Shown here in pieces: positions 8,141 through 59,663 of a stretch of 64,000 nucleotides of DNA. Position 1 is the first letter of the stretch, and the number at the start of each line of letters is the position of its first letter. The DNA is from an uncultured Clostridia bacterium. GTDB taxonomy: Bacteria; Bacillota; Clostridia; Oscillospirales; Ruminococcaceae. The DNA lies in contig CANQZR010000001.1 of assembly GCA_947628405.1 (NCBI GenBank), positions 956 to 64,955 of the forward strand. Direction: 5' to 3'. The notes beneath the pieces were generated by a model. That model made no database searches. It saw nothing but the letters and a program-made list of their open reading frames with translations, and was not told the origin of the DNA. Made by a program: the position numbers and the translations under genes.

Positions 8141-8142
8141 TT

Positions 8143-8358
8143 ATGAGAAATACAAATGTGATCATGAATGATGCCATGAATTGCCTTGTGAAAAACCTTG
8201 GAATAATTGAAACAGAAATTTTTATTTCCAATCTTCTCCGCGAACCATTTGATTACACCGAATGGCGCAAAGACAAGTTTGATGATATGTCTTTTGACGA
8301 ACTTGGCAAAGCTGCTGCCGAGTATAGCCGGAAAATACATTCCAACGATAATATTTAA
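8143..8358 (+). CDS. small partner protein of the PIN gene (putative antitoxin)
   Basis: 71-aa ORF. RBS GGAGG at 8131-8135, start 3 nt after the PIN stop. No family recognised. Confidence 0.4.
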   Translation: MRNTNVIMNDAMNCLVKNLGIIETEIFISNLLREPFDYTEWRKDKFDDMSFDELGKAAAEYSRKIHSNDNI

Positions 8359-8362
8359 ACAG

Positions 8363-8402
8363 AAAAGGACTTTATTTCAACAATACAAATAAAGTCCTTT
8401 TT
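8363..8402. terminator. bidirectional stem-loop terminator between convergent genes
   Basis: Perfect 14-15 bp inverted repeat AAAAGGACTTTATTT / AAATAAAGTCCTTTT, flanked by A-run and T-run. Confidence 0.6.
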
Positions 8403-10239
8403 AATACGATATCTGTGAAACACACATAGGCATATCCACATAATCAGCTTTATAATCAGTTCTGTTTACTACCGTACCATGACGAAGCTGAGCAAGATAA
8501 AAACATAAAAGACCGAATGCGAACACTCGGTCATCGTGCATTTTATTACGCTTGTCCGGCGGAAAGTTATATGTAACATTTCCTGTATTTTCATATTTGC
8601 ACATGGTTATTATCTCTGTTTTAAGAAGCTCTATCTGCGCAAGCGATATCCTTTCTTCCGGCGACAGATCATATCGACGTTCTGCACCGTTATCATCAAT
8701 ATACGACAGATATTCCTTGTCCGAATATTCAGCAGGAAATGTCACTACGCCGAGTTTGACCATTTTTTCAATGGATTCAAATATAGCATTTCTGTTGCCT
8801 TTAGGATCAACGAGTCTCATTATATCAACGGCGTCGGGATATTTGTTTTTAGTCGTTTCATTTGCCTTGTGACTTCGGTCTATGATACCTTTGTGTGTTT
8901 TCCCGTCAAAACCTACCCAATCGGCTACAACGTAGTCCGCAACACCGCCTATCATCTGACCGCCTGCACCGCTGTCACAAATAACGGCTTTTATATTTTC
9001 ATAATCAAGTTTACCCTTGTCATTGCCGTTATAGTCAAGCAGAAGCTGTTTGAAATCTTCTACTTGCTCCGGCAGACGCTTCGGAGTTTTGTTTTTCGTA
9101 TCAATATCAACAAGACTTACAATGTTATGAAGATCCATTCGCCAGCCTTTTTCGGGATCATCAATAAACTCTGCAATCACAATGACGCTGTTATCGTTTA
9201 TACGCGCCGAATCCCACGCAAACGCAAACAAGCGGTTACCTGTATCGTTATTAAGCAGGGGAGGACGGTTTACGGTATGATTTATCAGATCGCGCCGTGT
9301 AAGTATCTGTCCTTCGTGCATATCTGCGGTAAATTTGTTATATAATTCACGCATAGCCTTGTCGTAATTGTCAGCAATGGCTTTATCAACTTTGTCTTTA
9401 CTTAACAAAGGTGGATAAGGTTCACCGTTGAATTTTGCATTAAGCACCATATCAACGTTAAAGTCGCATACGAAATATCTCTTATCACCCATAAGCATGC
9501 GAGAAGCAAACATTTTCAGCTTTTTGTAAAAAGGTGAATTTGTATCCGAAGCCGAGGAAGCATACAAAAGCTGCCGTGCAAATCCCATAGGCTCAAGGAA
9601 TATATCCACATTACCGCCTAACTTGAACCTTTCATTCTGGTTTGCAAAGTTTTCCGCCTGAACAAACAGTTCGTCGGAGAACCAACCGGCTTCATCAAAG
9701 AAAACAAGATGTGCTCTTTTACCTTTAATGTTTACTATATCCGAGTTAAGAGTGTTTATCGTTGAGTGATTAAACAGACTTAAATGAAACGAACCCGGAT
9801 CGTGTACAAAGCCGTCGCCATTAGGCGAATTATTTTCAATTTCATTCAGGAAAACATCTGTACTTCCGGTAAAGGATTCAATTTCCTTTTTGGCGATCTT
9901 CTCTATGTTGATAAAAACTTCCTTCGCCTGACCGCCTATGTTGCCAAGAACATAGGTATTATGAAACGGAATGAGTAAACTTCTATCCATAATGTAAACA
10001 CCGGCTATAGAGGTCTTTCCGCCGTTTCTGCATTGCAGCCAGATATCAAAAGGCACGAACCAAGAGTTGTATATTGCATACTTCTGATAGTCAAGAAGTT
10101 CAATACCAAGGAAACGCCGAGTAAATCCTATAGGATCTCCGCGCCCCCAGTTTATGATCTGCATATATTTTTCGTAAGTTTCGAGTTTTCTTTGAGAAAT
10201 TTCCTTTTGCGATTTTTTATTGATAATAGTCAGGCTCAT
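8401..10239 (-). CDS. terL: terminase large subunit
   Basis: 612 aa. Walker A-like QCRNGGKTS, Walker B LVFFDEAGW, and a C-terminal nuclease-like region with acidic residues (VICDSGAGG). Canonical position upstream of the portal. Confidence 0.85.
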   Translation of the reverse strand: MSLTIINKKSQKEISQRKLETYEKYMQIINWGRGDPIGFTRRFLGIELLDYQKYAIYNSWFVPFDIWLQCRNGGKTSIAGVYIMDRSLLIPFHNTYVLGNIGGQAKEVFINIEKIAKKEIESFTGSTDVFLNEIENNSPNGDGFVHDPGSFHLSLFNHSTINTLNSDIVNIKGKRAHLVFFDEAGWFSDELFVQAENFANQNERFKLGGNVDIFLEPMGFARQLLYASSASDTNSPFYKKLKMFASRMLMGDKRYFVCDFNVDMVLNAKFNGEPYPPLLSKDKVDKAIADNYDKAMRELYNKFTADMHEGQILTRRDLINHTVNRPPLLNNDTGNRLFAFAWDSARINDNSVIVIAEFIDDPEKGWRMDLHNIVSLVDIDTKNKTPKRLPEQVEDFKQLLLDYNGNDKGKLDYENIKAVICDSGAGGQMIGGVADYVVADWVGFDGKTHKGIIDRSHKANETTKNKYPDAVDIMRLVDPKGNRNAIFESIEKMVKLGVVTFPAEYSDKEYLSYIDDNGAERRYDLSPEERISLAQIELLKTEIITMCKYENTGNVTYNFPPDKRNKMHDDRVFAFGLLCFYLAQLRHGTVVNRTDYKADYVDMPMCVSQISY

Positions 10240-11351
10240 GAACTGTCACCGTTCTTTTCTTCGTTCATTTGCTTGATCCTGATTTTTAACTGGCGTATTT
10301 CTTCTGCCTGTTTATCTGTTTTGTCCTGTAGTTCAGTTACCATTTCGGTCTGGTCAGCAAGCATTTTCGCATACTCATCTGTGGTAAAATTAAGCTCTTC
10401 AATAAGCGCCTTTGTACTCTGCCGGGCAACATCAAGATAGGATTCAGAAAGTTTGGCATTTACAATATTTACCTTTGTTTCTTCAAAGCCGTGTTCCTGC
10501 ATTTCTTTCATAATATTTGTAAGAGTGTTTGAACCTTTTGAAGATTTTCCGCTGGATTTCGCCGAAATACCATTGTCGTTGGCAATCGTGTTGATACTTC
10601 TCATAAGTTTATCCTTGGAAGCCGTCAGTTTATCAATAACGCCATAGTCAATATATACTTTTTTCAGTTCGGAATTTATCATTGAATCCACTTTGTTGAC
10701 CTGCCACATAGTCTTTACCATTCGCACAACTACTTGAAGTTTATGCTGATCTTCAAGGACATCATCGGTCAGGTAATCCGCAAGCATATTAAAAAGCATT
10801 TTTCTGTCATTGTTGTTGTATTCTTCATCATCGAAACAGTCATATCCGAGAGAAGATATAACATACTGCTGATTTTTCCGGTCGGCAGCGCTCCAGTTCT
10901 TTTCAATGTCACTGCGGACTTCACTATGCGATTTTTCGCCGTTTTCAAGAAGTTCAAAGATATAGTTGTTGAAATTTTTCGATTTGAACTGACGTACATT
11001 CAAAGTACGCATATATGTTCCCAAGGAAAATTCCGGACTTTCTTTCAGCTGTTCATACAGAGTTTCACTGAAATACATATCCAGATAGTGGCATATAATT
11101 ATTAATGCGCGCCGGCAATCGCCGAACCGCGCCTTGTATTCCTCGTAAAGCTGGTTGACACAACTCATACATATGTGAGAATATCCCATATTTCCCGTAA
11201 ACAGCGGACTTGCAGCCGACGCATAGAATTTTCTCTGCGGTATCTGAAATATTTCTCCGCAGCGCGTACACTTGTAAAGTACATCATCATTGTTATCAGG
11301 AATAATTTTTGTAGTCAGTGTGTCATTTTTTGATTTCGCAGGTCTCCCCAT
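10236..11351 (-). CDS. candidate terminase small subunit / DNA-recognition protein with N-terminal zinc ribbon
   Basis: 4-nt overlap with terL. Has CTRCG...CMSC cysteine pairs and a C-terminal coiled coil. The functional call rests on position only. Confidence 0.35.
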   Translation of the reverse strand: MGRPAKSKNDTLTTKIIPDNNDDVLYKCTRCGEIFQIPQRKFYASAASPLFTGNMGYSHICMSCVNQLYEEYKARFGDCRRALIIICHYLDMYFSETLYEQLKESPEFSLGTYMRTLNVRQFKSKNFNNYIFELLENGEKSHSEVRSDIEKNWSAADRKNQQYVISSLGYDCFDDEEYNNNDRKMLFNMLADYLTDDVLEDQHKLQVVVRMVKTMWQVNKVDSMINSELKKVYIDYGVIDKLTASKDKLMRSINTIANDNGISAKSSGKSSKGSNTLTNIMKEMQEHGFEETKVNIVNAKLSESYLDVARQSTKALIEELNFTTDEYAKMLADQTEMVTELQDKTDKQAEEIRQLKIRIKQMNEEKNGDSS

Positions 11352-30955: not shown

Positions 30956-32344
30956 ATGCCAAAGAACAGCGGAAAATCAAGACAGCGGAAGCAGAAGCCT
31001 ATCACCATTGATGTGGGCGGAAAAACCTATACTTTTGCAGGGATCGTGGAAACCAGATCCCAAGTAAAACTGATCCCGTTTACCGTTGAATCATATGTCA
31101 GGGACGTAATTAGCGGAGAGATCGACAGGGACACACTTATACAGCGTGAGCCGGATCAGTGGAGTACATACACCAAGTCAATGCTTATCTATGCAATGCT
31201 TATGGATAGGCAGATCGGCAATATCCTTATTGCCAAAGGACGTGACGAATCGAAAAACTATGAGATAGATTCCCTTATAGACGGCTTGCAGAGGACTACC
31301 GCAATTGTAGGATATGTCAACGGAGAATTTTCTTTAAGCAAGAAGATACCGGCAATAAACTGCCGTTTCAAGGACGAGGAAGAAAACTCAATAGAAGTGC
31401 CTTATGAGATAGGCGGAAAAAAATTTGACAAACTTCCGTCCGTCTTGCAGAAATCGCTGCTCAGATATCGCCTGACAGTATATGAATATGTGGACTTTGA
31501 GGACGAGGAGCTTGACGAGATCGTCAAGTGCGTAAACAGCGGAAAATCTCCTACAGTGTACCAGAAAATGCGGTTTACCCTCGGTTCGGATAATATGCGT
31601 ATGCTTCAGCCTTTGTGCGACAGTACCCTGTGGGAAGATATTCCCAACGTAAAAGCCAAGAATGACAGTATCCTTGCCTGCGTTATAAGAACGGCAATGC
31701 TCAATACAAGGTATGCCTTTAATAACCTTGGAGCCGGACAGATGAACGAGTTTGTTTCCCACTTCGGAGAAAATGTTACTCTTTCCAAGATCCGCGAGAC
31801 CGGAGAGCTTATTGAACAGCTTGCCGAAATAAAATGCGGAATGTCCGATGACGATATCGAGATATTCAGCGGTTGCTCCATACCGCATATTGTAATGAAT
31901 CTGAAACGTTACAACAGTATAGGGGAAAATTCCGTTTCCTACGGAGAATTTCTCCACGACTTCTTTTTGAGCGACGAATACCAGAAATTCTGTGATACCG
32001 AGGAGACCGGCAGCGGTGGATCTCAGTATTCACTGGAAAATGTCTCGGAGCGTCAGGCGATAATCGACGATTACCTTGACAGTTATTTTGAAAATTCTGA
32101 AAATACGGAGGGAGAAGGCGATGACCGGAAAGGAACAGAAACGACTTCTGGAAGAACAGAAAACAGCTATAGCGGAAGAGACGGAACGAATGGCGGAACG
32201 GATAGAACGGGAGCATATGACGATATCTCTATGCAGGGATATATCGGAGCTTACGGACAAACGCCTGAAAATTTTGAGTTCGGGGAAAACTATCCTGCAC
32301 AGATTTTATATCGAGACGTCTCAGCTCCTCGGACTTCCACTTAA
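30956..32344 (+). CDS. DUF262 (ParB/Srx-fold) protein; the 3-prime ~220 nt overlap the next gene out of frame
   Basis: Motifs IQREPDQW, LIDGLQRTTAIVGY and VKCVNSGKSPTVYQ. The last ~75 aa are low complexity (GTETTSGRTENSYSGRDGTNGGTDRTG). Confidence 0.65.
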   Translation: MPKNSGKSRQRKQKPITIDVGGKTYTFAGIVETRSQVKLIPFTVESYVRDVISGEIDRDTLIQREPDQWSTYTKSMLIYAMLMDRQIGNILIAKGRDESKNYEIDSLIDGLQRTTAIVGYVNGEFSLSKKIPAINCRFKDEEENSIEVPYEIGGKKFDKLPSVLQKSLLRYRLTVYEYVDFEDEELDEIVKCVNSGKSPTVYQKMRFTLGSDNMRMLQPLCDSTLWEDIPNVKAKNDSILACVIRTAMLNTRYAFNNLGAGQMNEFVSHFGENVTLSKIRETGELIEQLAEIKCGMSDDDIEIFSGCSIPHIVMNLKRYNSIGENSVSYGEFLHDFFLSDEYQKFCDTEETGSGGSQYSLENVSERQAIIDDYLDSYFENSENTEGEGDDRKGTETTSGRTENSYSGRDGTNGGTDRTGAYDDISMQGYIGAYGQTPENFEFGENYPAQILYRDVSAPRTST

Positions 32345-32834
32345 CGGAGTAAAAAATCTGCGAACGATCAACAGATTTTATGAAAATGCGGATAACGGCT
32401 TGGATAAACAGTGTATAGAATATGTCCTTGGAAAAAACAGTATCTCTATTACTGCAAAAATAGCCGGAGTTCTGGAGAGATGTACCAACGAAGAAAAGAC
32501 CGGACTTTTGTGTGGAAAAATAATGCCCACCGCACTTATAGAGACCGTCCGCAGCCGTTCCGCACCGAGTTGCAAGACCTTTGAGGAATTGCAGCAGGAG
32601 ATAAGAGATCCCGACGCAGCCGGAAATTTAAAGCTGTCTGATACAGCAAAGCTCTTTGATTATGCCGTTGAACAGATCGAAAAAACAGTCGAAAGGCTCA
32701 TAACCGGCGAATATGCGGAAACTTTCAGGGAAAAGGACGCCGTTTCACGGAAAATAATACGGGAACGGTGCGCCGACCTTGAATATGTCGTTAAAGTCGT
32801 TTTATCGCTGACCGATAATACACAAAATTCATAG
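32121..32834 (+). CDS. hypothetical helical protein (237 aa)
   Basis: RBS GGAGGGAGAAGG before the ATG at 32121. The translation looks protein-like from the first codon. No family recognised. Confidence 0.5.
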   Translation: MTGKEQKRLLEEQKTAIAEETERMAERIEREHMTISLCRDISELTDKRLKILSSGKTILHRFYIETSQLLGLPLNGVKNLRTINRFYENADNGLDKQCIEYVLGKNSISITAKIAGVLERCTNEEKTGLLCGKIMPTALIETVRSRSAPSCKTFEELQQEIRDPDAAGNLKLSDTAKLFDYAVEQIEKTVERLITGEYAETFREKDAVSRKIIRERCADLEYVVKVVLSLTDNTQNS

Positions 32835-51429: not shown

Positions 51430-51742
51430 TCCGTTTGAATTGAATCTTGTTAAAAGGTATAATTATATTGTAAGAAGAAAAATTTTAATTATTATCAAAA
51501 AGGAGATGAATTTTCATAAATGACATAGAAATAAAACTTCCAAAATCGGCGCAGTTGGCAATGCGGTATTACAGCGGTGGGAAACTGCTTTATGTTGTCA
51601 CACGGAATGTCACAGGGGATATATACACATTATTCAAGGCAGCAAAGGACAATAAACTGACAAAGATCCGCACCGCCGATACACCGATAAAATTCAAAGA
51701 GGTATACCCTGATTGATTTTTATATCTGAAAGGAGAATGTAT

Positions 51743-52375
51743 ATGCCCGTAGAATATGATTATTGTACAAACACATGGGGACCAACTTTGTCCAATGATT
51801 CAACTGTTTTGATCAAGCCAAAGCCAATAACTGATTCTGATGTTTATAAAGCGTTGAGTTCTTGTAAAACATTATCGAGTGTATTGGCAGACATATCTAA
51901 GCCAATGAAAAGTTCACCTATCATCAATTACACATACGACAGTATAAAAGGCGTGACAATAATTGAATGGATCGACGGTACAAAGACCATTGTCAGAGCA
52001 GAAAACCCGGACGCTGCCGATAAATTCACAGGCTTTATGACCGCCGTTGCAAAGAAAGCAATGGGCAACGATAACACAGTCAATAAACTTTTCGATGAAT
52101 GGGCAATAAAGAGACCACTGAAGGAACTGGAACAGCAGAAAAAACAGCAGAAAGAAAAGGCGGAAGCCGAAAGAATAGCCAAGAAACGAGCAGAAAAGAA
52201 ACGTAAATGGCTCGTCAGAAAACGTGCTGCTGAGATAGCAAGAGAGTATGAAGCACAGAAGATCGCCGAAGAGAAATATGGTGTTCCAATGGGATTACGT
52301 TTTCCTTGCACGCTTGATAGTACCAACGAATTTGATGGAGTGTTATCGTCAATGTCATTGGAGGAAACTAAATGA
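51743..52375 (+). CDS. hypothetical protein with Lys/Glu-rich C-terminal region
   Basis: The ATG 6 nt after AAAGGAGA is preferred as start. No family recognised. Confidence 0.5.
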   Translation: MPVEYDYCTNTWGPTLSNDSTVLIKPKPITDSDVYKALSSCKTLSSVLADISKPMKSSPIINYTYDSIKGVTIIEWIDGTKTIVRAENPDAADKFTGFMTAVAKKAMGNDNTVNKLFDEWAIKRPLKELEQQKKQQKEKAEAERIAKKRAEKKRKWLVRKRAAEIAREYEAQKIAEEKYGVPMGLRFPCTLDSTNEFDGVLSSMSLEETK

Positions 52376-52962
52376 AAATAGGTATTGATATTGACAACGT
52401 CATATTCAATACCGCCGAGACAGTGCTTGACGTTCACTATGAAGATACAGGTGAACGTCTGCACCTGTCGGATATAACGGATTATAATATGACGCAGTTC
52501 GTAGGTAAAAAATACAGATATCATTTCCCCGAACTTTTCTCCGATAAAAGGGTTATTGAGCGCCTGAAACCGCTTGATGCTTGTGTTGAAACTATAAATA
52601 ATATGTTTGGTAAACAAGGACACGACATTTTATTTGTGACTGCTTCTCCAAGATACATACTGCCGGACGGCAAGAAAAAATTGCAGGAACTTTTTGATTT
52701 TGATGTTTCAAAAAAAATAGTAGTTGCTAAACGCAAGTCTGTTGTGGATATAGATATTCTTATAGATGACTGTCTCGATCAAGTTTCAAGACAAATATTC
52801 TATAGAAACGATCCTGCTATTCTTTTAAATTATCCGTGGAATCAGCAACCCATTGTAGGAGGCTCTCGTGGGCTTCTCTACCGTGCCGATAATTGGAAAG
52901 ATATCGACAGATTAATGTTTCTGATGACGGCTGTTTTGAAAATAGATTCACAGGGGGAATGA
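52372..52962 (+). CDS. 5-prime(3-prime)-deoxyribonucleotidase (HAD, NT5C-like)
   Basis: N-terminal KIGIDIDNVIF (DxDxV) and late DILIDD. Confidence 0.65.
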   Translation: MKIGIDIDNVIFNTAETVLDVHYEDTGERLHLSDITDYNMTQFVGKKYRYHFPELFSDKRVIERLKPLDACVETINNMFGKQGHDILFVTASPRYILPDGKKKLQELFDFDVSKKIVVAKRKSVVDIDILIDDCLDQVSRQIFYRNDPAILLNYPWNQQPIVGGSRGLLYRADNWKDIDRLMFLMTAVLKIDSQGE

Positions 52963-53600
52963 CCATAAAAGTTTTAGAATTATTCGCAGGAACACGTTCA
53001 ATAGGTAAAGCGTTTGAAGCAAAGGGACACAAAGTGTTCAGCATTGACTGGAATAAAGATTTCGATAATATCGACTTATATACAGATATACGGGAACTTG
53101 CAGCGAAAGACATTATCGAAAAATTCGGTAAACCTGATATTATATGGGCTTCACCTGACTGCACAACATTTTCAATAGCCGCAATCAGTCATCACAGAAA
53201 AAGAAATCCTGAAACGGGCAATTTAGATCCTGTCAGTGATTATGCTAAGTTTTGTGATGAAGTCGATAAGCACGTTCTTGAACTTATTAAAGAACTTTCT
53301 CCCAAGTATTTCTTCATAGAGAATCCAAGGGGGGGTATGCGTAAGATGAGTTGGATGCAGGGCTTACCACGCTATACCGTTACATACTGCCAGTATGGTG
53401 ATATGAGAATGAAACCAACAGACATATGGACGAACCACCCTGATCCGCAGTTCAAACCTATGTGTCATAACGGCGATAGCTGCCATACTCCTGCACCAAG
53501 AGGAAGTAAAACAGGAACACAAGGCTTAAAAGGCTCAAAAGAACGTTCAGTCATTCCGCAGGAATTGTGTGAACATATAGTTGAAATTTGTGAGAGGTGA
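52959..53600 (+). CDS. short DNA cytosine-5 methyltransferase-like protein
   Basis: LELFAGTRS (motif I), SPDCTTFS (PC motif), FIENPRG (ENV-like). ATGA overlap with the upstream gene. Confidence 0.6.
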   Translation: MTIKVLELFAGTRSIGKAFEAKGHKVFSIDWNKDFDNIDLYTDIRELAAKDIIEKFGKPDIIWASPDCTTFSIAAISHHRKRNPETGNLDPVSDYAKFCDEVDKHVLELIKELSPKYFFIENPRGGMRKMSWMQGLPRYTVTYCQYGDMRMKPTDIWTNHPDPQFKPMCHNGDSCHTPAPRGSKTGTQGLKGSKERSVIPQELCEHIVEICER

Positions 53601-53615
53601 CAGCTTATAAAATAC

Positions 53616-54395
53616 ATGGGAAGTAAGTCCCGTATTGCGAAATGTATTGTTCCGATTTTACAAAAGTGTATTGACGATAATGGAATAAATACATATATAG
53701 AACCGTTTTGCGGCGGTTGTAATATTATTGATAAAATCAGGTGTAGTAACAGAATTGCAAATGATGTGAACCCGTATCTTATTGCTTTGTTTCAGCATTT
53801 GCAAACCGGTGGAGAATTACCCACAGAGGTGTCCAGAACACTATATTCCAAAGTCCGTGCAGAGTATAAAAATAACGCATATGAACCGTGGTTTGTTGGC
53901 GCAGTAGGTTTTCTTGCAAGTTATAACGGACGTTGGTTTGACGGCGGTTATGCCCAGCCGGGTTGGGAAAAGAATAAGAATGGAAAACCTGTACGGTATA
54001 GAGACTATTATCAAGAAGCAAAGAAAAATATTGAAAGTCAAACCACTTTACTTAAAGATGTTACATTTCATTGCCAAGACTATAAAAAGTGTAATATACC
54101 AGATAATTCTCTTATTTATTGTGATCCGCCTTATTGCAATACCAAACAATTTGCTAATGCAATGGATTTCGATTACGAAATATTCTGGCAGCAAATACGC
54201 GAATGGAGTATAGAACATTTCGTTGTAACAAGTGAACTCAACGCACCATCGGATTTTGAATGTATATGGGAAAAAGAATGTAGCCGTAGCATAAAGGCTA
54301 ATGACAAAAGTATAGCAGTTGAAAAATTATTCATTTATAACAAAGGCAAATCTTTTAATTATCTGCATAATACAGAGGTGAATACCAGTTCTTGA
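53616..54395 (+). CDS. dam: Dam-type (D12 class) N6-adenine DNA methyltransferase
   Basis: YIEPFCGGCN, NDVNPYLI and IYCDPPY. Confidence 0.8.
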   Translation: MGSKSRIAKCIVPILQKCIDDNGINTYIEPFCGGCNIIDKIRCSNRIANDVNPYLIALFQHLQTGGELPTEVSRTLYSKVRAEYKNNAYEPWFVGAVGFLASYNGRWFDGGYAQPGWEKNKNGKPVRYRDYYQEAKKNIESQTTLLKDVTFHCQDYKKCNIPDNSLIYCDPPYCNTKQFANAMDFDYEIFWQQIREWSIEHFVVTSELNAPSDFECIWEKECSRSIKANDKSIAVEKLFIYNKGKSFNYLHNTEVNTSS

Positions 54396-54432
54396 ATTAA
54401 ATAAGATATATGACATTGACTGTATCAGTGGA

Positions 54433-55185
54433 ATGAAATTGATAGATAATTCATCTATTGATATGATTTTTACAGATTTGCCCTATGGAGTAACGGCTAA
54501 AAATAAGTGGGATAATATCATTCCATATGAACCTTTGTGGGAACAATTTATAAGATTAATCAAACCTAACGGAGTAATATTGCTGTTCGGGCAAGGCAAG
54601 TTTACAGCGAGAACAATTCTTTCAAATGAAAAAATGTTTCGCTATAACATAGTCTGGGAAAAGACAACGCCCACAGGTTTTCTGAACGCTAAGCGTATGC
54701 CTATGCGGATACATGAAGATATAATGGTTTTCTATAAGAATCTGCCTACATACAATCCGCAGAAAACGCAAGGGCATAAACGCAAAGTGAGTAAAGCCGA
54801 ACATAAACAGAATTGCACTGTTACCAAAGATTACGGCGATCACAAATTAACGTCATATGATAGTACGGAACGTTATCCAACAAGTGTCTGGAAATTCCCG
54901 ACTGATAAACAAACCGAAGCAATTCACCCTACACAAAAACCTGTTGACCTTTGCAGATATGCGATACGCACATATAGTAACGTGGGCGATATTATTCTTG
55001 ATTGCTGTTGCGGTTCCGGTTCAATTCCACTTGCCGCAGCATTGGAGAATAGAAATTTTATCGGTATGGATAACGGTATTTGTGAAAAAGAAAATACCGA
55101 ATACTACGGTATTCCATGGGCGCAGATTGCCACCGAAAGAATAAAACGAATTACACAAGGAGGGAGAATAATTCAATGCAGTTAA
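54433..55185 (+). CDS. beta-class N4/N6 DNA methyltransferase (start uncertain)
   Basis: IFTDLPYG, HPTQKPVDL and ILDCCCGSGS. A conserved-looking N-terminus, ELNKIYDIDCISG, is encoded upstream of the first canonical start. Confidence 0.75.
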   Translation: MKLIDNSSIDMIFTDLPYGVTAKNKWDNIIPYEPLWEQFIRLIKPNGVILLFGQGKFTARTILSNEKMFRYNIVWEKTTPTGFLNAKRMPMRIHEDIMVFYKNLPTYNPQKTQGHKRKVSKAEHKQNCTVTKDYGDHKLTSYDSTERYPTSVWKFPTDKQTEAIHPTQKPVDLCRYAIRTYSNVGDIILDCCCGSGSIPLAAALENRNFIGMDNGICEKENTEYYGIPWAQIATERIKRITQGGRIIQCS

Positions 55186-55683
55186 AATATACAGATAAAG
55201 ACCTGTTTACATTTCCACGCACCTATTGCTTATGCCATTGTATTTCAGCAGACTTCGCTTTAGGTGCAGGTATTGCAAAAACGTTTTGATGAAATTTATA
55301 AAATGCGTTTTAAATTATTTAATCGCTACGGTAAAACTTCTGAAACAATGCGTGTCGGTCAGGCACTGCGAGTGGATAATGTATTCAATCTTGTAACTAA
55401 AGAAAGATACTTCCATAAGCCGACTTATGAATACCTTGAAAAATGTCTTATTGATATGAAAAAGCAAATGCAAGACTTGGAAATTACAAAGGTTGCAATG
55501 CCAAAAATAGGCTGTGGACTTGACAAACTTGACTGGAACAAAGTTGAAAGTATCATCAAAAAAGTTTTTGCTGATATGGAAATTGAAATTACAGTCAGCA
55601 CTTATACACCACAAAGAAAGGAGAAACAATGGACGAACACGAATACAGTGCAGACGGAAAAGTCCACGATGCAGAACGGTTAA
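55176..55683 (+). pseudogene. TARG1/OARD1-like macrodomain gene interrupted by a +1 frameshift at an A5 run
   Basis: Frame 1 reads MQLKYTDKDLFTFPRTYCLCHCISADFALGAGIAKTF and stops at 55287-55289. The +1 frame continues (K)RFDEIYKM...HKPTYEYL...MPKIGCGLDKLDW...EITV. The A5 run is at 55277-55281. Confidence 0.7.
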
Positions 55684-56736
55684 GAGAGTTACAAGCCCTG
55701 CCCTTGGAACGTAAAATAGCAATTACGCAAGCAAGAATAATTGAATGGTATCAATATTTCAACGGTAATGTTTACGTTTCATTCAGCGGTGGTAAAGACA
55801 GTACAGTTCTGCTTAATATTGTAAGAAAAATTTATCCCGAAGTCCCTGCCGTATTCAGCAATACCGGACTTGAATATCCGGAGATACAAAATTTTGCTAA
55901 ATCTTTTAATAATGTAGTTGTTATTCGTCCGAAAATGTCATTTGTTGATGTGATCTTAAATTATGGATATCCACTATTCTCCAAAGAAATTTCAGCAGCT
56001 ATTTATTATGCAAGACAAAAAGATAAAAGTAAAAGTTCAAAGTCGAAAAGAAAAGAACTTCTGGGGGGGGCGAATAGAAAAAGATGGTACGAAATCACGA
56101 TATAACAAGAATAAGTGGCTGCTTGCCGCCGAGGAATTACCTTTTAAAATAACTCATTACTGCTGTTATGTTATGAAAAAACTTCCGATTAAGAGTTATG
56201 CGAATAGTTCAAAGCAAGAAAAAATAGTCGGCACAATGGCAGAAGAAAGTGCAATGCGGAAGCAAGGCTGGATAAGAACCGGCTGCAATGCCTTTGACGG
56301 CAAAAACAAAAGCTCACAGCCTATGAGCTTCTGGACAGAACAAGATGTTCTTGAATACATAAAGCGTTATAATCTAAGGATATGTTCGGTTTACGGAGAA
56401 ATACAAGCAGACAAAAACGGCTGTCTATTCTGCACCGGCTGTAAACGCACAGGCTGTATGTTCTGCGCTTTCGGCATCCATCTTGAAAAAGGCGAAACCA
56501 GATTTCAGCAGCTTGCCAGAACTCACCCAAGGCAATACGACTACTGTATCAATGGCGGTCAGTGGATAGATAATCCCGATTATGACCCTGCATTGTCAAA
56601 TAGACCTGATGAATTAGGCTGGGTAGAATGGAATCCAAAGCAGATATGGGTACCGTCAAAACAAGGTCTCGGCATGGGAAACGTTTTTGATATGGTAAAC
56701 GAAATATACGGCAAAGAAATAATGAGATATAAATAA
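55629..56736 (+). pseudogene. PAPS-reductase/DndC-like PP-loop protein (DUF3440-type C-terminus) interrupted by a +1 frameshift at a G8 run
   Basis: The N-terminal part carries SFSGGKDSTVLL and its frame ends at 56105. The +1 frame carries LPFKITHYCC...GTMAEESAMRKQGW...GCNAF...TGCKRTGCMFCAFG. The G8 run is at 56063-56070. Confidence 0.7.
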
Positions 56737-56751
56737 GAAGGGAGCAATCGA

Positions 56752-57360
56752 ATGAGCAAAGACTGGACAGGAAACAACAAATCAATATTTACCCGCAATG
56801 GTGCAAGCAACCATTCCGATGGAGAAAGAGAAACATGGGATTATTACGCAACAGAACCAAAGGCATTGGAACTGCTGCTTGAAAAAGAAACATTTAACGA
56901 ACATATCTGGGAACCTGCTTGTGGTGAACTGCATTTATCGAATGTGCTTGAAAATCATGGATATAATGTACGTAATTCGGATATAATCGACAGGCTTCAG
57001 AACGGCAAGATAGAAACTATTGACTTTCTTAAATATGAGGGTAAATGGGAAGGAGATATAATAACAAATCCGCCTTATAAATATGCGAAGGATTTTGTAG
57101 AAAAGGCTCTGGACGTAGTTACCATGGGACATAAAGTGGCAATGTTTCTGAAACTTACCTTCCTTGAAAGTCAGGCAAGACGTGAATTGTTTGATAAAGC
57201 ACCACCTAAATTATTGTATGTATCAACAAAGCGTTTGCAGTGTGCGAAGAATGGCGATTTCGTTACATATAGCAAAGGTACGGGAACAGCGGTAGCTTAC
57301 GGTTGGTATATTTGGGAGAAAGGTTTTACCGGCAGACCTGAAATTGTATGGTTCAATTAA
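56752..57360 (+). CDS. N6-adenine DNA methyltransferase-like protein (NPPY)
   Basis: WEPACGELH (SAM motif) and DIITNPPYKY. Confidence 0.6.
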   Translation: MSKDWTGNNKSIFTRNGASNHSDGERETWDYYATEPKALELLLEKETFNEHIWEPACGELHLSNVLENHGYNVRNSDIIDRLQNGKIETIDFLKYEGKWEGDIITNPPYKYAKDFVEKALDVVTMGHKVAMFLKLTFLESQARRELFDKAPPKLLYVSTKRLQCAKNGDFVTYSKGTGTAVAYGWYIWEKGFTGRPEIVWFN

Positions 57361-58560
57361 ATGAATGGCAGTAAGGAGGACAAATTGAGCAACGGAATAA
57401 AAGTATTAAGTCTCTTTGACGGCATTTCTTGTGGACGTGTTGCTTTGGAACGTGCAGGAATACCTGTTGAGGAATACCACGCCTTTGAAATTGATAAATA
57501 TGCTGTTCAGGTATCGCAGAAGAATTATCCCGACATTGTACATCACGGAGATGTATTTGACGGAGATTTCACGCAGTTCAGGAGTTACGACTTACTAATT
57601 GGTGGCAGCCCCTGCACGTACTGGTCAATAGCCAAAAACAATCGTGAAACAACACCCGACGGCATAGGCGGTCAGCTGTTTATGCAGTATGTCCGAGCCT
57701 TAAAAGAAAGTGGCTGCAAGTATTTCTTGTATGAGAACAACTACTCAATACATAAGAATATCAAAGATTTTATATCAAATCAGCTTGGCGTACAGCCTAT
57801 TATGATAAATTCCGCTCTTGTTTCCGCACAACAGAGAAAACGCTGCTACTGGACGAATATTCCCAATATTACACAGCCGGAGGATAGGAATATTATGTTG
57901 AAAGATATTCTTGGAAGCGGTGTTTCTTGGCAGGATAAAAGCTACTGTGAAGTCAGCGAAGTATGGTTGCAGAGCCTGTTATTTTGCAAAAAAGGTCACG
58001 GGTTCAACAAAGGAGGCGTAAAAAAGGACAAATCGCCAACGCTTACTGCACAAGGCAGTTGGCAGAATAATAATTCTATTGCAGAACCCGTAGGCGTAGC
58101 CCAACGTGGACGATATATCGAAAGTGGAAACCGTTCACAGAAATGTGACGGCGGTACGGAACAATTTATCGAAGCAAGAAAAGACAGTAAAAGCAATTGT
58201 CTTACAACAGTTCAGAAAGATTCGATGGTAGCCGTTCCGATAGACACATCAAAGCCTGTAAGAATAGGTAGCTTCGGCAAAGGCGGACAAGCCCAGTGTA
58301 TTTATTCAGTACACGGCAAATCGGTCAATATTGTAGGAAACGGCGGTGGCGGCGGTGCAAAAACAGGTCTTTACAAAATAGACTTGCCGGACGGAGATTA
58401 CATAATCAGAAAGATGACACCGATCGAAGCGGAACGCTTACAGACTTTGCCTGACAATTACACAGAGGGAATATCAAATACTCAGCGTTACAAGTGTATC
58501 GGCAACGGCTGGACGGTTGATGTTATCGCACATATTCTGAAAAACATAAAAAGAGCGTGA
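57361..58560 (+). CDS. dcm: DNA cytosine-5 methyltransferase
   Basis: LSLFDGISCG, GGSPCTYWS, FLYENN, QQRKRCYW and IGNGWTVDV. An alternative TTG start lies at 57385. Confidence 0.85.
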   Translation: MNGSKEDKLSNGIKVLSLFDGISCGRVALERAGIPVEEYHAFEIDKYAVQVSQKNYPDIVHHGDVFDGDFTQFRSYDLLIGGSPCTYWSIAKNNRETTPDGIGGQLFMQYVRALKESGCKYFLYENNYSIHKNIKDFISNQLGVQPIMINSALVSAQQRKRCYWTNIPNITQPEDRNIMLKDILGSGVSWQDKSYCEVSEVWLQSLLFCKKGHGFNKGGVKKDKSPTLTAQGSWQNNNSIAEPVGVAQRGRYIESGNRSQKCDGGTEQFIEARKDSKSNCLTTVQKDSMVAVPIDTSKPVRIGSFGKGGQAQCIYSVHGKSVNIVGNGGGGGAKTGLYKIDLPDGDYIIRKMTPIEAERLQTLPDNYTEGISNTQRYKCIGNGWTVDVIAHILKNIKRA

Positions 58561-58562: not shown

Positions 58563-59122
58563 ATGACACCATATCATACTTTATCGGCAGCAATAACAAC
58601 AATTTCTCTTGCCATAGTATGTTTCTTGCTTGCTTTCTGCAAACCTCTTGACGAACCGGAAGCAATTACGCCTGAACCGATGAAATTACCGAAATAACAC
58701 CGCCTACATTATACGACAGTTTTACGGAATACGAAAGAAATCTTCTTGAAGTTACAATACAGCATGAAGTCGGCGCATTTTCGGACGAGTATAAAACACT
58801 TATCGCAGAGCTTATTTATAATCGTCTGGTTTCGGATCAGTTCCCGAACACCGTTGAAGCAGTCCTTTTCCAGAATAATCAATTCTGTGGTATTGAATAC
58901 TGGTATTCACCTGATTTTGAAATAGACGAAAGCACAAAAGAAATTGTCAGAAAGGTGTTTTCCAAAAACAATACAAGCCACGAAGCGTTATATTATTACA
59001 ATTCGGAGCTTTCAGACTACAATTCCGTAATGTGGTTTGAGTACAGCGGTGATGTACAGTTCTTATTTGAACACACCGAAACCGATTGGGGAATTGAATA
59101 TACAACACGATTTTTTAAATAG
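58563..59122 (+). pseudogene. membrane-anchored SleB/CwlJ-type cell wall hydrolase split by a frameshift
   Basis: ORF A (58563-58697) reads MTPYHTLSAAITTISLAIVCFLLAFCKPLDEPEAITPEP... The -1 frame (58676-59122) has no start codon but reads ...ERNLLEVTIQHEVGAFSDEYKTLIAELIYNRLVSDQFPNTVEAVLFQNNQF... Confidence 0.6.
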
Positions 59123-59132
59123 GAGGACAAAT

Positions 59133-59402
59133 ATGCTTATTTGCTGTGACTGTGGAAAACTGCTTGAAGAAGATGACGTTTCTGAGTTCAAAGCATTTGA
59201 CAACGCTTGGGGATACGAAAAATTTATAGCATATAAAGGTTGTCCATACTGCGGAAGTGGTTCTCTTGCAGAAACAACACTGATATGTGATTGCTGCGGA
59301 GAGTATATCGAAAGTGATTATGTCAGAACCGAAGATGACAGAACTTATTGCAACAATTGTTATAGCATAAACAACGCTGTGGACGAAGCACAAGGAATAT
59401 AG
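59133..59402 (+). CDS. Cys-rich zinc-ribbon protein (89 aa)
   Basis: RBS AGGAGGA. Cysteine pairs CCDCG, CPYCG, CDCCG and CNNC. Confidence 0.55.
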   Translation: MLICCDCGKLLEEDDVSEFKAFDNAWGYEKFIAYKGCPYCGSGSLAETTLICDCCGEYIESDYVRTEDDRTYCNNCYSINNAVDEAQGI

Positions 59403-59414: not shown

Positions 59415-59663
59415 GTGAAAATATTGGAATATAAAATTGTACTGCCAACAGCAAGAGACGTCAAAGATTTTGTTTTTACAGTCAGCACATTACCTGTCGG
59501 CATACAAATAAAAGTCGGTCACGGAGATTTTGTTGTTGACGGCAGGAGTATATTAGGACTTCTGAGCATACACACAAAAGGCGTCCTGACCGTAAAGATA
59601 ATTTCTGAAAAGCCTATCGGAACAGATATGCACCGTCTTCTATATCCTTGGATAAAGGAGTAG
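59415..59663 (+). CDS. HPr-fold-like small protein (tentative)
   Basis: VDGRSILGLLSIHTKGVLTVKI resembles the HPr core, but the His15 region is not conserved. Start may be GTG 59415 or TTG 59424. Confidence 0.3.
   Translation: MKILEYKIVLPTARDVKDFVFTVSTLPVGIQIKVGHGDFVVDGRSILGLLSIHTKGVLTVKIISEKPIGTDMHRLLYPWIKE

What the first reader, a model, noticed from the sequence alone, without database searches (positions are those of the whole stretch)
52959..58560. Dense DNA-modification island: five DNA methyltransferases flanking a macrodomain and a DndC/PAPS-reductase-like gene
Seen in sequence, within 5.6 kb:
- a short C5-MTase-like gene (FAGTRS, PDC, ENP)
- a Dam-type MTase (DPPY)
- a beta-class N4/N6 MTase (DLPY, HPTQKP)
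- a TARG1-like macrodomain
- a PP-loop SGGKDS protein with a Cys-rich C-terminus
- an NPPY MTase
- a full-length Dcm (PC, ENN, QRKR, GNG)

Established knowledge:
- Phages stack orphan methyltransferases to evade multiple restriction systems.
- PAPS-reductase-like proteins include DndC (phosphorothioation) and BrxP of BREX type 4.
- The function of the phage DUF3440-type homologs is not established.

Inference: this is a multi-layer anti-restriction island. The PP-loop enzyme may install or process a non-methyl DNA modification.
Basis: partly seen in the sequence, partly recalled or inferred. Interest (0 to 1): 0.65.

Follow-up and report, generated by a model that had tools for sequence, protein, structure and literature searches.

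The report
Phage DNA-methylase island, two genes frameshifted
A gut-phage genome packs five intact DNA methyltransferase genes around a TARG1-like macrodomain gene and a PAPS-reductase-like gene, but these two are each thrown out of frame by one extra base, the second in a run of eight G's of a kind that is unusually common in this gene family and may work as an on/off switch.

Summary
Profile and fold searches confirm four DNA methyltransferases: a 213-aa C5 enzyme with almost no target-recognition domain, a Dam/D12, a beta-class N6/N4 and a full Dcm. The fifth, a 202-aa NPPY protein, matches only a phage family.

Each has a one-base insertion, in an A5 run at 55277-81 and a G8 run at 56063-70. 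Four other assemblies carry the same run lengths. Repaired in silico, the macrodomain is TARG1/DarG-type. The PP-loop protein has a PAPS/APS-reductase fold, conserved cysteines and an uncharacterised C-terminus. It is not DUF3440, not DndC and not CysH by model scores, and the island holds no phosphorothioation partner.

The island is a mosaic accessory slot in a Clostridia phage. Relatives swap the methylases, and the macrodomain and PAPS-like genes are not obligate partners.

In two independent locus sets, runs of at least seven G or C are about three times commoner than codon-shuffled expectation in PAPS-like genes. They are also raised in neighbouring methylases and depleted in other genes. 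Six of 30 tract-bearing PAPS-like genes are out of frame exactly at the tract.

The parts
52372..52962 (+). Left flank: NT5C-type 5'(3')-deoxyribonucleotidase gene. Its stop overlaps the start of g1 (ATGA).
   Evidence: PF06941, 48.6 bits. The same gene precedes the island in relative L006.
52959..53600 (+). g1: minimal C5 cytosine DNA methyltransferase, 213 aa. It has the catalytic domain, but only about 35 residues stand where the target-recognition domain should be.
   Evidence: PF00145 positions 1-113 only; phrog_757 at 1e-47. More than 8000 homologues of 211-216 aa at about 80% identity. AF2 model pLDDT 85; Foldseek best matches DNMT3A/B, M.HaeIII and M.HhaI at E about 1e-8.
53329..53335 (+). 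G7 run inside g1, in frame (CCA AGG GGG GGT = PRGG). Two ENA contigs begin immediately after it.
   Evidence: It is one of only two runs of G or C of 7 or more in the 64 kb. L006 has AGA GGG GGT here, so the run is specific to this lineage.
53616..54395 (+). g2: Dam-type (D12 class) N6-adenine DNA methyltransferase, 259 aa, DPPY.
   Evidence: PF02086 72 bits; TIGR00571 5e-17; phrog_56. Absent from L006 and present in L008, so it behaves as a cassette.
54433..55185 (+). g3: beta-class N6/N4 DNA methyltransferase, 250 aa. DLPY at the N-terminus, AdoMet motif at the C-terminus.
   Evidence: PF01555 107.5 bits over 1-211 of 221; PADLOC MTase_II 3e-62.
55176..55289 (+). Macrodomain gene, 5' fragment. 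ATG 55176, 37 codons, ends at TGA two codons after the frameshift.
   Evidence: It matches the N-terminus of the intact L006 macrodomain.
55277..55281 (+). Frameshift site 1: A5 run. GCAAAAACG here against GCAAGACG in L006, one extra base.
   Evidence: Alignment. Deleting one A gives a 168-aa protein that is 88% identical to the L006 protein.
55264..55683 (+). Macrodomain gene, 3' part, in the next frame. It carries the catalytic Lys (VTKE) and Asp (GCGLD).
   Evidence: PF01661. The repaired protein against PDB: TARG1/OARD1 4j5r at E 7e-28 over full length, and the DarG macrodomain 5m3i at 7e-9. PADLOC DarG 2e-23.
55629..56105 (+). PAPS-reductase-like gene, 5' fragment, 158 aa, with the PP-loop SGGKDS. 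It overlaps the macrodomain gene by 55 nt, as in L006.
   Evidence: PF01507 positions 2-54. Exactly this truncated product is encoded in four ENA assemblies.
56063..56070 (+). Frameshift site 2: G8 run in the hypervariable linker of the PAPS-like gene. G7 would be in frame.
   Evidence: The repaired 368-aa protein aligns at 100% coverage and 80% identity to P0001 and keeps all invariant residues.
56071..56736 (+). PAPS-reductase-like gene, 3' part, in the next frame (the ORF is open from 55963). It holds the CC pair, C219, the CxxC-x4-CxxC cluster and a roughly 95-aa C-terminal domain with no Pfam family.
   Evidence: PF01507 positions 54-172. Conserved cysteines. dN/dS against L006 is 0.115, like the 5' part at 0.09.
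56752..57360 (+). g6: 202-aa NPPY protein, probably a gamma-class N6-adenine methyltransferase catalytic domain without a recognition domain.
   Evidence: phrog_799 at 1e-58. No Pfam, NCBIfam or PDB sequence match. The motifs EPACGE and NPPY were read in the sequence.
57361..58560 (+). g7: full-length C5 cytosine DNA methyltransferase (Dcm type), 399 aa.
   Evidence: PF00145 over 1-324 of 324, 126.7 bits. TIGR00675 115.6 bits, above its cutoff of 100.65.

Best explanation
The 5.6 kb is a mosaic accessory slot for DNA modification and counter-defence in a roughly 67-kb tailed phage of gut Clostridia. The likely host is Oscillospiraceae-like, from an animal gut. The slot sits between the replication genes (primase-helicase, Pol III alpha, RecD helicase, NT5C) and the nucleotide-metabolism genes (ThyX, a kinase, NrdD).

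Shown:
- Five orphan methyltransferase genes are intact. Two are C5 enzymes, and one of these is almost without a recognition domain. The others are a Dam, a beta N6/N4 enzyme and a small NPPY protein.
- Between them lie a TARG1/DarG-type macrodomain gene and a PP-loop gene with a PAPS/APS-reductase fold and conserved cysteines.
- Both of these carry a one-base insertion in a homopolymer in this phage lineage.

Inferred:
- The methylases mark the phage's own DNA during replication and so blunt several host restriction systems.
- The macrodomain, when intact, strips ADP-ribose that DarT-type toxins put on DNA, as AdfM does.
- The PAPS-like enzyme, when intact, adenylates a substrate and transfers sulfur to it. 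The substrate is most likely a nucleic acid rather than sulfate.
- As sequenced, both proteins are truncated and inactive.
- The A5 lesion in the macrodomain is an ordinary recent mutation.
- The G8 lesion is most likely the OFF state of a slippage-prone tract.
For: Gene identities.

Frameshifts:
- The two frames map to adjacent halves of one Pfam profile.
- There is one extra base against intact L006 at both sites.
- Four ENA assemblies of other samples are 99.87-100% identical with no gaps, yet differ by 1-3 SNPs.
- No intact allele of this lineage turned up among 5.8 billion proteins; the best hit was 80% identical.

The lesions are recent:
- All invariant residues downstream are kept.
- dN/dS against L006 is 0.09 before and 0.115 after the PAPS frameshift. 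It is 0.16 for the macrodomain.

Mosaic slot:
- L006 has g1-macro-PAPS-RNA ligase-Dcm(intein). L008 has Dam-N6N4-N6N4-macro-ClpP-PAPS-C5.
- TerL, portal, primase and Pol III define a tailed phage.
- TerL is 75% identical to one in an Oscillospiraceae MAG.

PAPS-like enzyme:
- AF2 model pLDDT 94. The best PDB folds are CysH and APS reductase, followed by CysD, TtuA and LarE.
- The protein has an invariant CC pair plus CxxC, as in the region aligned to Mtb APS reductase.
- A cysteine desulfurase gene lies next to or near the gene in 5 of 82 phage loci and in L092.

Tract: (see the section on the most novel reading).

Precedent for a phage anti-DarT macrodomain: PMC13309987.
Against: - No activity was measured for any of the seven products.
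- g6 has no curated family match.
- g1 lacks a recognisable target-recognition domain, so its substrate could differ from duplex DNA.
- The ENA contigs have only 3.5-4.4x coverage and come from one study, so they are not fully independent. Two of them break at the G7 run, which shows that poly-G troubles these assemblies.
- All five copies of this lineage have G8. No length variation is seen where switching would predict some.
- The sulfur-transfer role rests on fold, cysteines and a minority gene neighbourhood.
Confidence: 0.7

Rival explanations
1. The two frameshifts are sequencing or assembly errors in homopolymers. The phage really encodes an intact macrodomain and an intact PAPS-like enzyme.
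For: - Both sites are homopolymers.
- The ENA contigs have 3.5-4.4x coverage, and two of them start right after the G7 run.
- The downstream frames are fully conserved.
Against: - Five assemblies, including the 66.7-kb source contig held by NCBI and ENA, agree on A5 and G8 while differing at SNPs.
- An A5 run is not error-prone on Illumina-type data.
- The macrodomain site also differs from L006 by a substitution.
Confidence: 0.08
2. This is plain gene decay. Both genes are pseudogenes on their way out because the present host makes them useless or costly, and the G8 run has no switching role.
For: - The A5 lesion is not at a hypermutable site.
- All five copies of the lineage are OFF, and no ON allele is on record.
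- The two disabled genes are adjacent and overlap by 55 nt, which fits joint loss.
Against: - There is no second lesion in either gene. dN/dS downstream of the frameshifts is as low as upstream.
- Long poly-G runs are enriched in this family against a codon-permutation null in two datasets and are depleted in other genes.
- Frameshifts in the family sit at the tracts.
Confidence: 0.3
3. Recoding occurs. Ribosomes shift +1, or RNA polymerase slips, at AAA-A and GGG-G, so that full-length macrodomain and PAPS-like proteins are made from the frameshifted genes.
For: - Both sites allow the P-site tRNA to re-pair one base forward (AAA to AAA, GGG to GGG).
- Both sites are followed by an NCG codon, and both need the same +1 shift.
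- The downstream frames are intact.
- GGG, GCG and ACG are among the rarer codons in this window's genes.
Against: - The shift is not conserved. L006 and L008 encode both proteins as single ORFs.
- Out-of-frame PAPS-like genes in other phages break at different positions.
- No stimulatory element was identified.
Confidence: 0.05
4. The PAPS-like gene is a true cysH-type auxiliary metabolic gene that boosts host assimilatory sulfate reduction. It is unrelated to the methylases around it.
For: - The best structural matches are CysH and APS reductases.
- It has an APS-reductase-like CC...CxxC cysteine pattern.
- Current virome papers treat phage PAPS reductase as an AMG, without experiments (PMC13369170).
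Against: - NCBIfam CysH and APS-reductase models score 19-39 bits against cutoffs of 154-254.
- No ECG[LI]H catalytic tail can be read in the sequence. Instead there is a conserved, uncharacterised C-terminal domain of about 95 aa.
- The gene sits among replication, modification or packaging genes.
- Cysteine desulfurase is a recurrent neighbour.
- The gene shares the poly-G signature of the methylases.
Confidence: 0.1
5. The PAPS-like enzyme is a DndC/SspD/BrxP-type phosphorothioation enzyme that puts sulfur into the phage DNA backbone.
For: - It belongs to the same superfamily. PADLOC gives BrxP at 3e-14 and SspD at 7e-8.
- Cysteine desulfurase neighbours occur in some phages.
- It is placed among DNA-modification genes.
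Against: - The hits cover only the PP-loop (residues 37-97), and there is no DndC hit.
- All four known PT systems need a DndD/SspC/BrxC-type P-loop NTPase (PMC12914056). None is in the island, and none is among the 18 commonest neighbour families of 82 loci.
- In many phages the gene is solitary.
Confidence: 0.12

Closest known systems
Stacked orphan methyltransferases of phages (self-methylation against restriction)
   Same: Several methylase genes of different classes (C5, D12 Dam, beta N6/N4) lie side by side with no cognate nuclease, in the early or replication region.
   Different: Two of the five are minimal enzymes without a recognisable target-recognition domain (g1 of 213 aa, g6 of 202 aa). 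The set differs between close relatives cassette by cassette.
AdfM (PhiKZ gp104), DarG and human TARG1/OARD1 macrodomains
   Same: Full-length similarity to TARG1 (E 7e-28) and to the DarG macrodomain. The catalytic Lys and Asp are conserved. Like AdfM it is an orphan, with no DarT and no DarG C-terminal domain (PMC13309987).
   Different: Here the gene is frameshifted after codon 35. Its closeness to AdfM itself was not tested. No activity is known for this clade.
DndC / SspD / BrxP (PAPS-reductase-domain proteins of DNA phosphorothioation)
   Same: PP-loop SGGxDS, PAPS-reductase fold, conserved cysteines, and an occasional cysteine desulfurase neighbour.
   Different: Model matches are limited to the PP-loop. 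There is no DUF4007 and no NTPase partner. The C-terminal domain of about 95 aa is different. The gene is a solitary phage gene.
CysH and bacterial APS reductase
   Same: Best structural match; the CC...CxxC pattern aligns with Mtb APS reductase.
   Different: It scores far below the equivalog cutoffs. It has no ECG[LI]H tail, an extra CxxC, a hypervariable 0-40-aa linker and an added C-terminal domain.
Simple-sequence-repeat contingency loci (phase-variable mod genes, 'phasevarions') of Campylobacter, Helicobacter, Neisseria and Haemophilus
   Same: Poly-G tracts lie inside DNA-modification genes. Tract length varies between near-identical genomes, and a sizeable fraction of copies is out of frame at the tract.
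   Different: Here the genes are phage or prophage genes of gut Clostridia, and one is a non-methylase (PAPS-like). Switching within a population has not been observed. Two full-text searches found no prior description.

Membership tests
C5 cytosine DNA methyltransferase (PF00145 / TIGR00675) | Profile match over the whole catalytic domain, above the curated cutoff | tested here: met
   g7: PF00145 over 1-324 of 324, 126.7 bits. TIGR00675 scores 115.6 against a cutoff of 100.65.
C5 cytosine DNA methyltransferase (PF00145 / TIGR00675) | The same, for the short gene g1 | tested here: inconclusive
   PF00145 scores 33.6 bits (cutoff 22) but covers only positions 1-113 of 324. TIGR00675 scores 24.3 against 100.65. 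The fold matches DNMT3A/B, M.HaeIII and M.HhaI at E about 1e-8.
C5 cytosine DNA methyltransferase (PF00145 / TIGR00675) | Catalytic Pro-Cys (motif IV) and ENV-type motif VI | tested here: met
   Read: g7 has SPC and ENN; g1 has PDC and ENP. Both g1 motifs are invariant in 36 homologues.
C5 cytosine DNA methyltransferase (PF00145 / TIGR00675) | Target-recognition domain between motifs VIII and IX | tested here: not met
   In g1 only about 35 residues lie there, partly at pLDDT below 50 (residues 184-192). g7 has a normal one.
D12-class Dam N6-adenine methyltransferase (PF02086) | Profile match above the cutoff, plus DPPY | tested here: met
   g2: 72 bits against a cutoff of 22; DPPY read. It falls below the TIGR00571 subfamily cutoff (62.5 against 114.85), so it is not a close Dam orthologue.
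Beta-class N6/N4 DNA methyltransferase (PF01555) | Profile match above the cutoff, with motif IV before motif I | tested here: met
   g3: 107.5 bits over 1-211 of 221. DLPY is at residues 14-17 and the AdoMet motif near residue 190. Whether the target is N6-adenine or N4-cytosine is not resolved.
Gamma-class (NPPY) N6-adenine DNA methyltransferase | Match to a curated methyltransferase model | tested here: not met
   g6 has no Pfam, NCBIfam or PDB sequence hit; the best is PF05869 at E 0.1, 12.7 bits against a cutoff of 28.1. Only phrog_799 'DNA methyltransferase' matches, at 1e-58. The resemblance of EPACG...NPPY to M.TaqI is from memory, so it is a lead only.
TARG1/DarG-type macrodomain (ADP-ribosyl hydrolase) | Full-length sequence similarity and the catalytic Lys and Asp | tested here: met
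   Repaired protein against 4j5r: E 7e-28, residues 3-142 against 8-145. TKe aligns with TKK, and gcgLD with gcgLD.
TARG1/DarG-type macrodomain (ADP-ribosyl hydrolase) | Uninterrupted reading frame | tested here: not met
   A one-base insertion at 55277-81 leads to a stop at 55287-89.
DarG antitoxin (type II TA with DarT) | C-terminal DarT-binding domain and an adjacent darT | tested here: not met
   The NCBIfam DarG model matches only over positions 26-167 of 338, at 68 bits against a cutoff of 250. The neighbours are methylases.
DndC / SspD / BrxP phosphorothioation enzymes | PAPS-reductase domain with a PP-loop | tested here: met
   PF01507 split over the two fragments. P0001 scores 63.4 bits over positions 2-174 of 175.
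DndC / SspD / BrxP phosphorothioation enzymes | Family-level model match beyond the PP-loop | tested here: not met
   PADLOC gives BrxP at 3e-14 over residues 37-88 only, SspD at 7e-8 over residues 50-97 only, and no DndC hit.
DndC / SspD / BrxP phosphorothioation enzymes | Partner P-loop NTPase (DndD/SspC/BrxC) and a cysteine desulfurase in the locus | tested here: not met
   All island genes are accounted for. No desulfurase is in the 64 kb. No such ATPase is among the commonest neighbours in 82 loci. The requirement is stated in PMC12914056.
CysH PAPS reductase / APS reductase | Equivalog-level score and the C-terminal ECG[LI]H catalytic motif | tested here: not met
   NF002537 scores 39.3 against 154, TIGR00434 32.8 against 165, and TIGR02055 28.1 against 235. 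The fold match is met.
DUF3440-type PAPS reductase (IbrA/YbdN-like) | DUF3440 domain C-terminal to PF01507 | tested here: not met
   P0001 scanned against Pfam at E up to 5 gives only PF01507, plus sub-threshold PP-loop and QueC hits.
Simple-sequence-repeat contingency (phase-variable) locus | Long homopolymer inside the ORF, over-represented relative to expectation | tested here: met
   Window G8. For the family, 14 tracts against 4.3+-2.0 expected, and 11 against 4.3+-1.8 in the second set. Other genes show 12 against 23.7 and 7 against 30.6.
Simple-sequence-repeat contingency (phase-variable) locus | Tract-length polymorphism between near-identical genomes | tested here: inconclusive
   Seen for a neighbouring N6_N4 gene: G6 x9, G7 x2 and G8 x2 with identical flanks. 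Seen also for PAPS-like L012 (G7) against L028 (G8). Not seen in the window lineage, where all five copies are G8.
Simple-sequence-repeat contingency (phase-variable) locus | Reversible switching within one population | not testable with these tools
   This needs raw reads or culture of the phage.

The most novel reading that the evidence does not exclude
The PAPS-reductase-like genes of Clostridia phages and prophages, together with the methyltransferase genes beside them, may be contingency loci. Selected poly-G tracts would switch them on and off by slipped-strand mispairing, and the window's G8 would be an OFF phase.

Evidence:
- In the first set (IMG/VR and ENA loci, de-duplicated), 78 PAPS-like genes carry 14 runs of at least seven G or C, against 4.3+-2.0 expected under within-gene synonymous codon permutation (0 of 400 permutations reach this).
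- In the same set, 1594 other genes carry 12 against 23.7 expected.
- In the second set (GTDB contigs, de-duplicated against the first), PAPS-like genes carry 11 against 4.3+-1.8. Methylases carry 8 against 3.4 (P 0.0125). 882 other genes carry 7 against 30.6.
- The tracts lie at seven or more different positions of the protein.
- Six of 30 tract-bearing genes are out of frame exactly at the tract.
- A cultured Anaerocaecibacter muris genome has a PAPS-like gene followed by a C5 methylase broken at G10, G12 and G11, and by a ParB-N6_N4 methylase broken at G15.
- One phage clade shows G6, G7 and G8 at the same methylase site.

If this holds, the product of the phage 'cysH' gene has a host-dependent cost and benefit, as a DNA modification does, and is not a housekeeping metabolic booster.
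Probability: 0.4. Interest if true: 0.7.

Novelty: new variant of a known kind. Interest (0 to 1): 0.55.

Why it matters
Phage 'PAPS reductase/cysH' is one of the most often reported auxiliary metabolic genes in gut and environmental viromes. Its function has never been tested: a 2026 paper still argues from bacterial homologues (PMC13369170).

Three lines of evidence here move it towards the host-conflict and DNA-modification class and give concrete experiments:
- It fails the CysH and DndC membership tests.
- A cysteine desulfurase gene lies beside it in some phages.
- It shares with neighbouring methyltransferases a replicated excess of slippage-prone poly-G tracts that other phage genes avoid.

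For annotation, the window shows that two 'genes' of an apparent anti-defence island are out of frame. Automatic pipelines report them as four small ORFs.

If poly-G switching of phage modification genes is real, it would be a bet-hedging layer in phage-host epigenetic conflict. Phase-variable bacterial restriction-modification genes are the known counterpart.

Tried and rejected
- Megablast of the island against 50,697 phage records found no match. The lineage has no close cultured relative.
- Exact look-ups of the 257-aa ORF and of the Dcm found nothing.
- Obligate macrodomain-PAPS coupling is rejected. It was suggested by the 55-nt overlap, by synteny in L006 and L008, and by both genes being disabled. 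However, only L006 and L008 of 82 PAPS loci have the macrodomain. Only 15 of 61 macrodomain loci have a PAPS-like gene within 5 kb, and sister genomes differ in its presence.
- An obligate link between the PAPS-like gene and methylases is rejected. A C5 methylase lies within 3 kb in 15 of 82 loci. In cultured phages the gene sits between portal and protease, between TerS and TerL, or beside an HNH gene.
- The DUF3440 label is rejected.
- A literature search with the term 'IbrA' returned noise.
- The DNA pattern around the L012/L028 tract was too specific; it recovered only those two contigs.
- The G7 in g1 is not conserved, since L006 has AGA GGG. It is weak evidence on its own.
- SNPs that cluster at the macrodomain 5' end in L005 lie within 30 nt of a contig end and were not interpreted.
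- Promoter and terminator scans gave nothing beyond chance, except a good -35/-10 pair at 51435-51463 after the RecD gene.

Full report
**Observation**

Curated profiles confirm four DNA methyltransferases.
- g7 (57361-58560) is a complete C5 enzyme: PF00145 over 1-324 of 324, and TIGR00675 above its cutoff.
- g2 (53616-54395) is a D12 Dam-type enzyme.
- g3 (54433-55185) is a beta-class N6/N4 enzyme.
- g1 (52959-53600) matches only the first third of PF00145.

g1 belongs to a very large and very conserved family of 211-216-aa proteins: more than 8000 hits at about 80% identity. Its AF2 model (pLDDT 85) is closest to DNMT3A/B, M.HaeIII and M.HhaI. It is therefore a C5 catalytic domain with almost no recognition domain.

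g6 (56752-57360, NPPY) matches only phrog_799 and no curated model or solved structure. Calling it a methyltransferase is probable, not proven.

The macrodomain and the PP-loop gene are each split between two reading frames.
- For the PP-loop gene, the 158-aa ORF 55629-56105 covers PF01507 positions 2-54. The next frame (open from 55963 to 56736) covers positions 54-172.
- For the macrodomain, ATG 55176 opens a 37-codon ORF that stops at 55289. The rest, with PF01661, is in the next frame and ends at 55683.

The junctions are an A5 run (55277-81) and a G8 run (56063-70). Alignment with the intact genes of relative L006 shows exactly one extra base at each.

Removing one base restores two proteins.
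- One is a 168-aa macrodomain, 88% identical to that of L006.
- The other is a 368-aa protein that aligns end to end with homologues (80% to P0001) and keeps every invariant residue.

**Are the frameshifts real?**

- Four ENA assemblies of other samples (L001, L003, L004, L005) cover the region at 99.87-100% identity without a single gap. They differ from the window at 0-3 SNPs.
- The 66.7-kb source contig is on record in NCBI and ENA with the same truncated products.
- No intact allele of this lineage exists among 5.8 billion clustered proteins.

Caveats: the contigs have about 4x coverage, come from one study, and two of them break at the G7 run in g1. I rate an artefact at about 0.08.

The lesions are recent. 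dN/dS against L006 is 0.09 upstream and 0.115 downstream of the PAPS frameshift, and 0.16 for the macrodomain. For comparison, g1 gives 0.056 and NT5C 0.20.

**What the two genes are**

The repaired macrodomain is TARG1/OARD1-type.
- It matches 4j5r at E 7e-28 over its full length, with the catalytic Lys and Asp aligned.
- It is related to DarG macrodomains (5m3i at 7e-9; PADLOC DarG at 2e-23).
- It lacks the DarG C-terminal domain.

A phage orphan macrodomain, AdfM, removes DarT2-made ADP-ribose from phage DNA (PMC13309987). NADAR proteins do the same against DarT1 (PMC11825919). Counter-defence against DarT is therefore the most likely role of the intact form.

The PP-loop protein has these properties.
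- Its AF2 model, built for P0001, has pLDDT 94. The model is closest to CysH and APS reductases, then to CysD, the FAD synthase PAPS domain, TtuA and LarE.
- It has an invariant CC pair, C219 and CxxC-x4-CxxC. The CC and the first CxxC align with Mtb APS reductase.
- It scores far below all CysH and APS-reductase cutoffs.
- It has no ECG[LI]H tail.
- Its conserved C-terminal domain of about 95 aa has no Pfam family. DUF3440 is not found even at E up to 5.
- PADLOC BrxP and SspD hits cover only the PP-loop, and there is no DndC hit.
- Known phosphorothioation systems all need a P-loop NTPase partner (PMC12914056), and none is present here.

**Context**

The window is a tailed phage: portal, TerL, primase-helicase and Pol III alpha. 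The island lies between RecD/NT5C and ThyX/kinase/NrdD. TerL is 75% identical to one in an Oscillospiraceae MAG. The closest PAPS-like gene in genomes (81%) is in a rabbit-gut Clostridia MAG.

Relatives keep the slot but change its content.
- L006 has g1-macro-PAPS-RNA ligase-Dcm with an intein.
- L008 has Dam-N6N4-N6N4-macro-ClpP-PAPS-C5.

Across 82 phage loci with a PAPS-like gene, the neighbours are diverse.
- A C5 methylase lies within 3 kb in 15 loci.
- The macrodomain occurs only in L006 and L008.
- A cysteine desulfurase occurs in 5 loci. It is directly downstream in L018 and L013, and it is also present in L092.

In cultured phages the gene lies between portal and protease, between TerS and TerL, or next to an HNH gene. 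Of 61 phage loci with this macrodomain, 15 have a PAPS-like gene within 5 kb, and sister genomes differ in having it.

So the seven genes are independent cassettes in a hotspot, not one system. The desulfurase link favours sulfur transfer over sulfate reduction.

**Poly-G tracts**

The window's only two runs of G or C of 7 or more are the G7 in g1 and the G8 in the PAPS-like gene. Another frameshifted homologue (L028) also breaks at a G8, where L012 has G7 in the same context. I therefore surveyed the tracts.

| Dataset | Gene class | Genes | Tracts observed | Expected (synonymous permutation) | Note |
|---|---|---|---|---|---|
| Set 1, de-duplicated | PAPS-like | 78 | 14 | 4.3+-2.0 | 0 of 400 permutations reach it |
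| Set 1 | Methylases | 42 | 5 | 2.1 | P 0.055 |
| Set 1 | Other genes | 1594 | 12 | 23.7 | depleted |
| Set 2, GTDB contigs, de-duplicated against set 1 | PAPS-like | 71 | 11 | 4.3+-1.8 | 0 of 400 permutations reach it |
| Set 2 | Methylases | 49 | 8 | 3.4 | P 0.0125 |
| Set 2 | Other genes | 882 | 7 | 30.6 | depleted |

Further observations:
- A/T runs of 9 or more are not enriched.
- The tracts lie at seven or more different protein positions, including the PP-loop itself.
- Six of 30 tract-bearing PAPS-like genes are out of frame exactly at the tract.
- In the cultured Anaerocaecibacter muris CLA-AA-M11, a PAPS-like gene is followed by a C5 methylase interrupted at G10, G12 and G11. It is also followed by a ParB-N6_N4 methylase interrupted at G15.
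- In one phage clade, a tract at the 5' end of an N6_N4 gene is G6 (9 genomes), G7 (2) or G8 (2) with identical flanks.
- Two full-text searches found no description of this in phages.

Limits:
- Relatedness between loci is only crudely removed.
- No read-level data were available.
- The window lineage itself shows no length variation.

**Verdict**

The methylase stack is real and ordinary in kind. In this phage the two non-methylase genes are disabled by single-base insertions. The 'DndC/DUF3440' reading of the PP-loop gene fails its membership tests, while a nucleic-acid sulfur-transfer role stays the best guess. The most interesting outcome is the replicated poly-G signature, which groups the PAPS-like gene with the methylases as a probable switchable conflict gene.

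Noticed in passing
L187 (Anaerocaecibacter muris CLA-AA-M11, NZ_CALPCE010000006.1) 5986-11312: A prophage-like stretch of a cultured isolate, at 461x coverage. A PAPS-like gene is followed by a C5 methylase split at G10 (7947), G12 (8120) and G11 (8353), and by a ParB_N + N6_N4 methylase split at G15 (10570). This organism could be used to test switching.
   Followed up: partly
L141-L154 (IMG/VR 3300045988 and others), N6_N4 gene about 3-4 kb downstream of the macrodomain: The tract at the 5' end of the methylase gene is G6 in 9 genomes, G7 in 2 and G8 in 2, with identical flanks. A second tract, at the start codon of the next N6_N4 gene, counts 7 G's (including the G of the ATG) in 6 genomes and 6 in 1.
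   Followed up: yes
L018 3941-5164, L013 9350-10462, L092 1622-2806; also L083, L014, L080: A NifS/IscS-type cysteine desulfurase gene (PF00266 in L092) lies directly downstream of, or near, the PAPS-like gene in a minority of phages. There is none in the window.
   Followed up: partly
L166 (Clostridium phage Clo-PEP-1) 2977-3957; L009 (Ruminococcus phage NatCom_29429) 4953-6038: In some cultured phages the PAPS-like gene sits inside the packaging and head module: between TerS and TerL, or between portal and protease. In Clo-PEP-1 it is annotated 'aminotransferase V', which looks like a misnomer.
   Followed up: no
window 56010-56260 versus L006 10380-10630: The middle of the PAPS-like gene is a hypervariable linker, 0-40 aa long and rich in K, R, E and S across homologues. 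It is far more diverged between the window and L006 (dS 1.5, dN 0.49) than the two ends, which are more than 90% identical. This suggests a recombinational patch. Another homologue (L085) is frameshifted in this linker, which there contains an A11 run.
   Followed up: partly
L006 12052-14211; L008 17233-20219: The Dcm orthologue of L006 carries an intein (Hint and Intein_splicing domains, 719 aa), which the window's g7 lacks. In L008 the NrdD gene is split by an HNH endonuclease gene.
   Followed up: no
window 30956-32344 and 32076-32834 (+ strand): Two long ORFs in different frames overlap by 269 nt. This could be another frameshifted gene or a programmed shift. PHROG hits did not link the two halves.
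   Followed up: no
L026 about 9583, L027 about 9423, L046 about 13008; L056 5972-6023: G9 runs recur in a shared DNA context, TTTTCAC-N2-3-G9-TA, in three otherwise different genes next to PAPS-like genes. L056 has three C7/G8 runs inside 22-nt repeats (GAAAATTTCAC-C7-ATG) within a DnaD-like gene, which looks iteron-like.
   Followed up: no
L022 6841-9113; L018 7906-8779: L022 has tandem duplicate PAPS-like genes. L018 has a second, broken copy of the gene.
   Followed up: no
window 51435-51463: This is the best sigma-70-like promoter match of the region (TTGAAT-17-TATAAT), just after the RecD gene. It may drive the small-ORF/NT5C/island block. No + strand terminator-like site lies within the island.
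   Followed up: no
window 59037-59402 and 59415-59663: Two small genes lie between the island and ThyX: a multi-CxxC zinc-ribbon protein, and an 82-aa protein with a weak HPr-like match (E 0.03). Their function is unknown.
   Followed up: no
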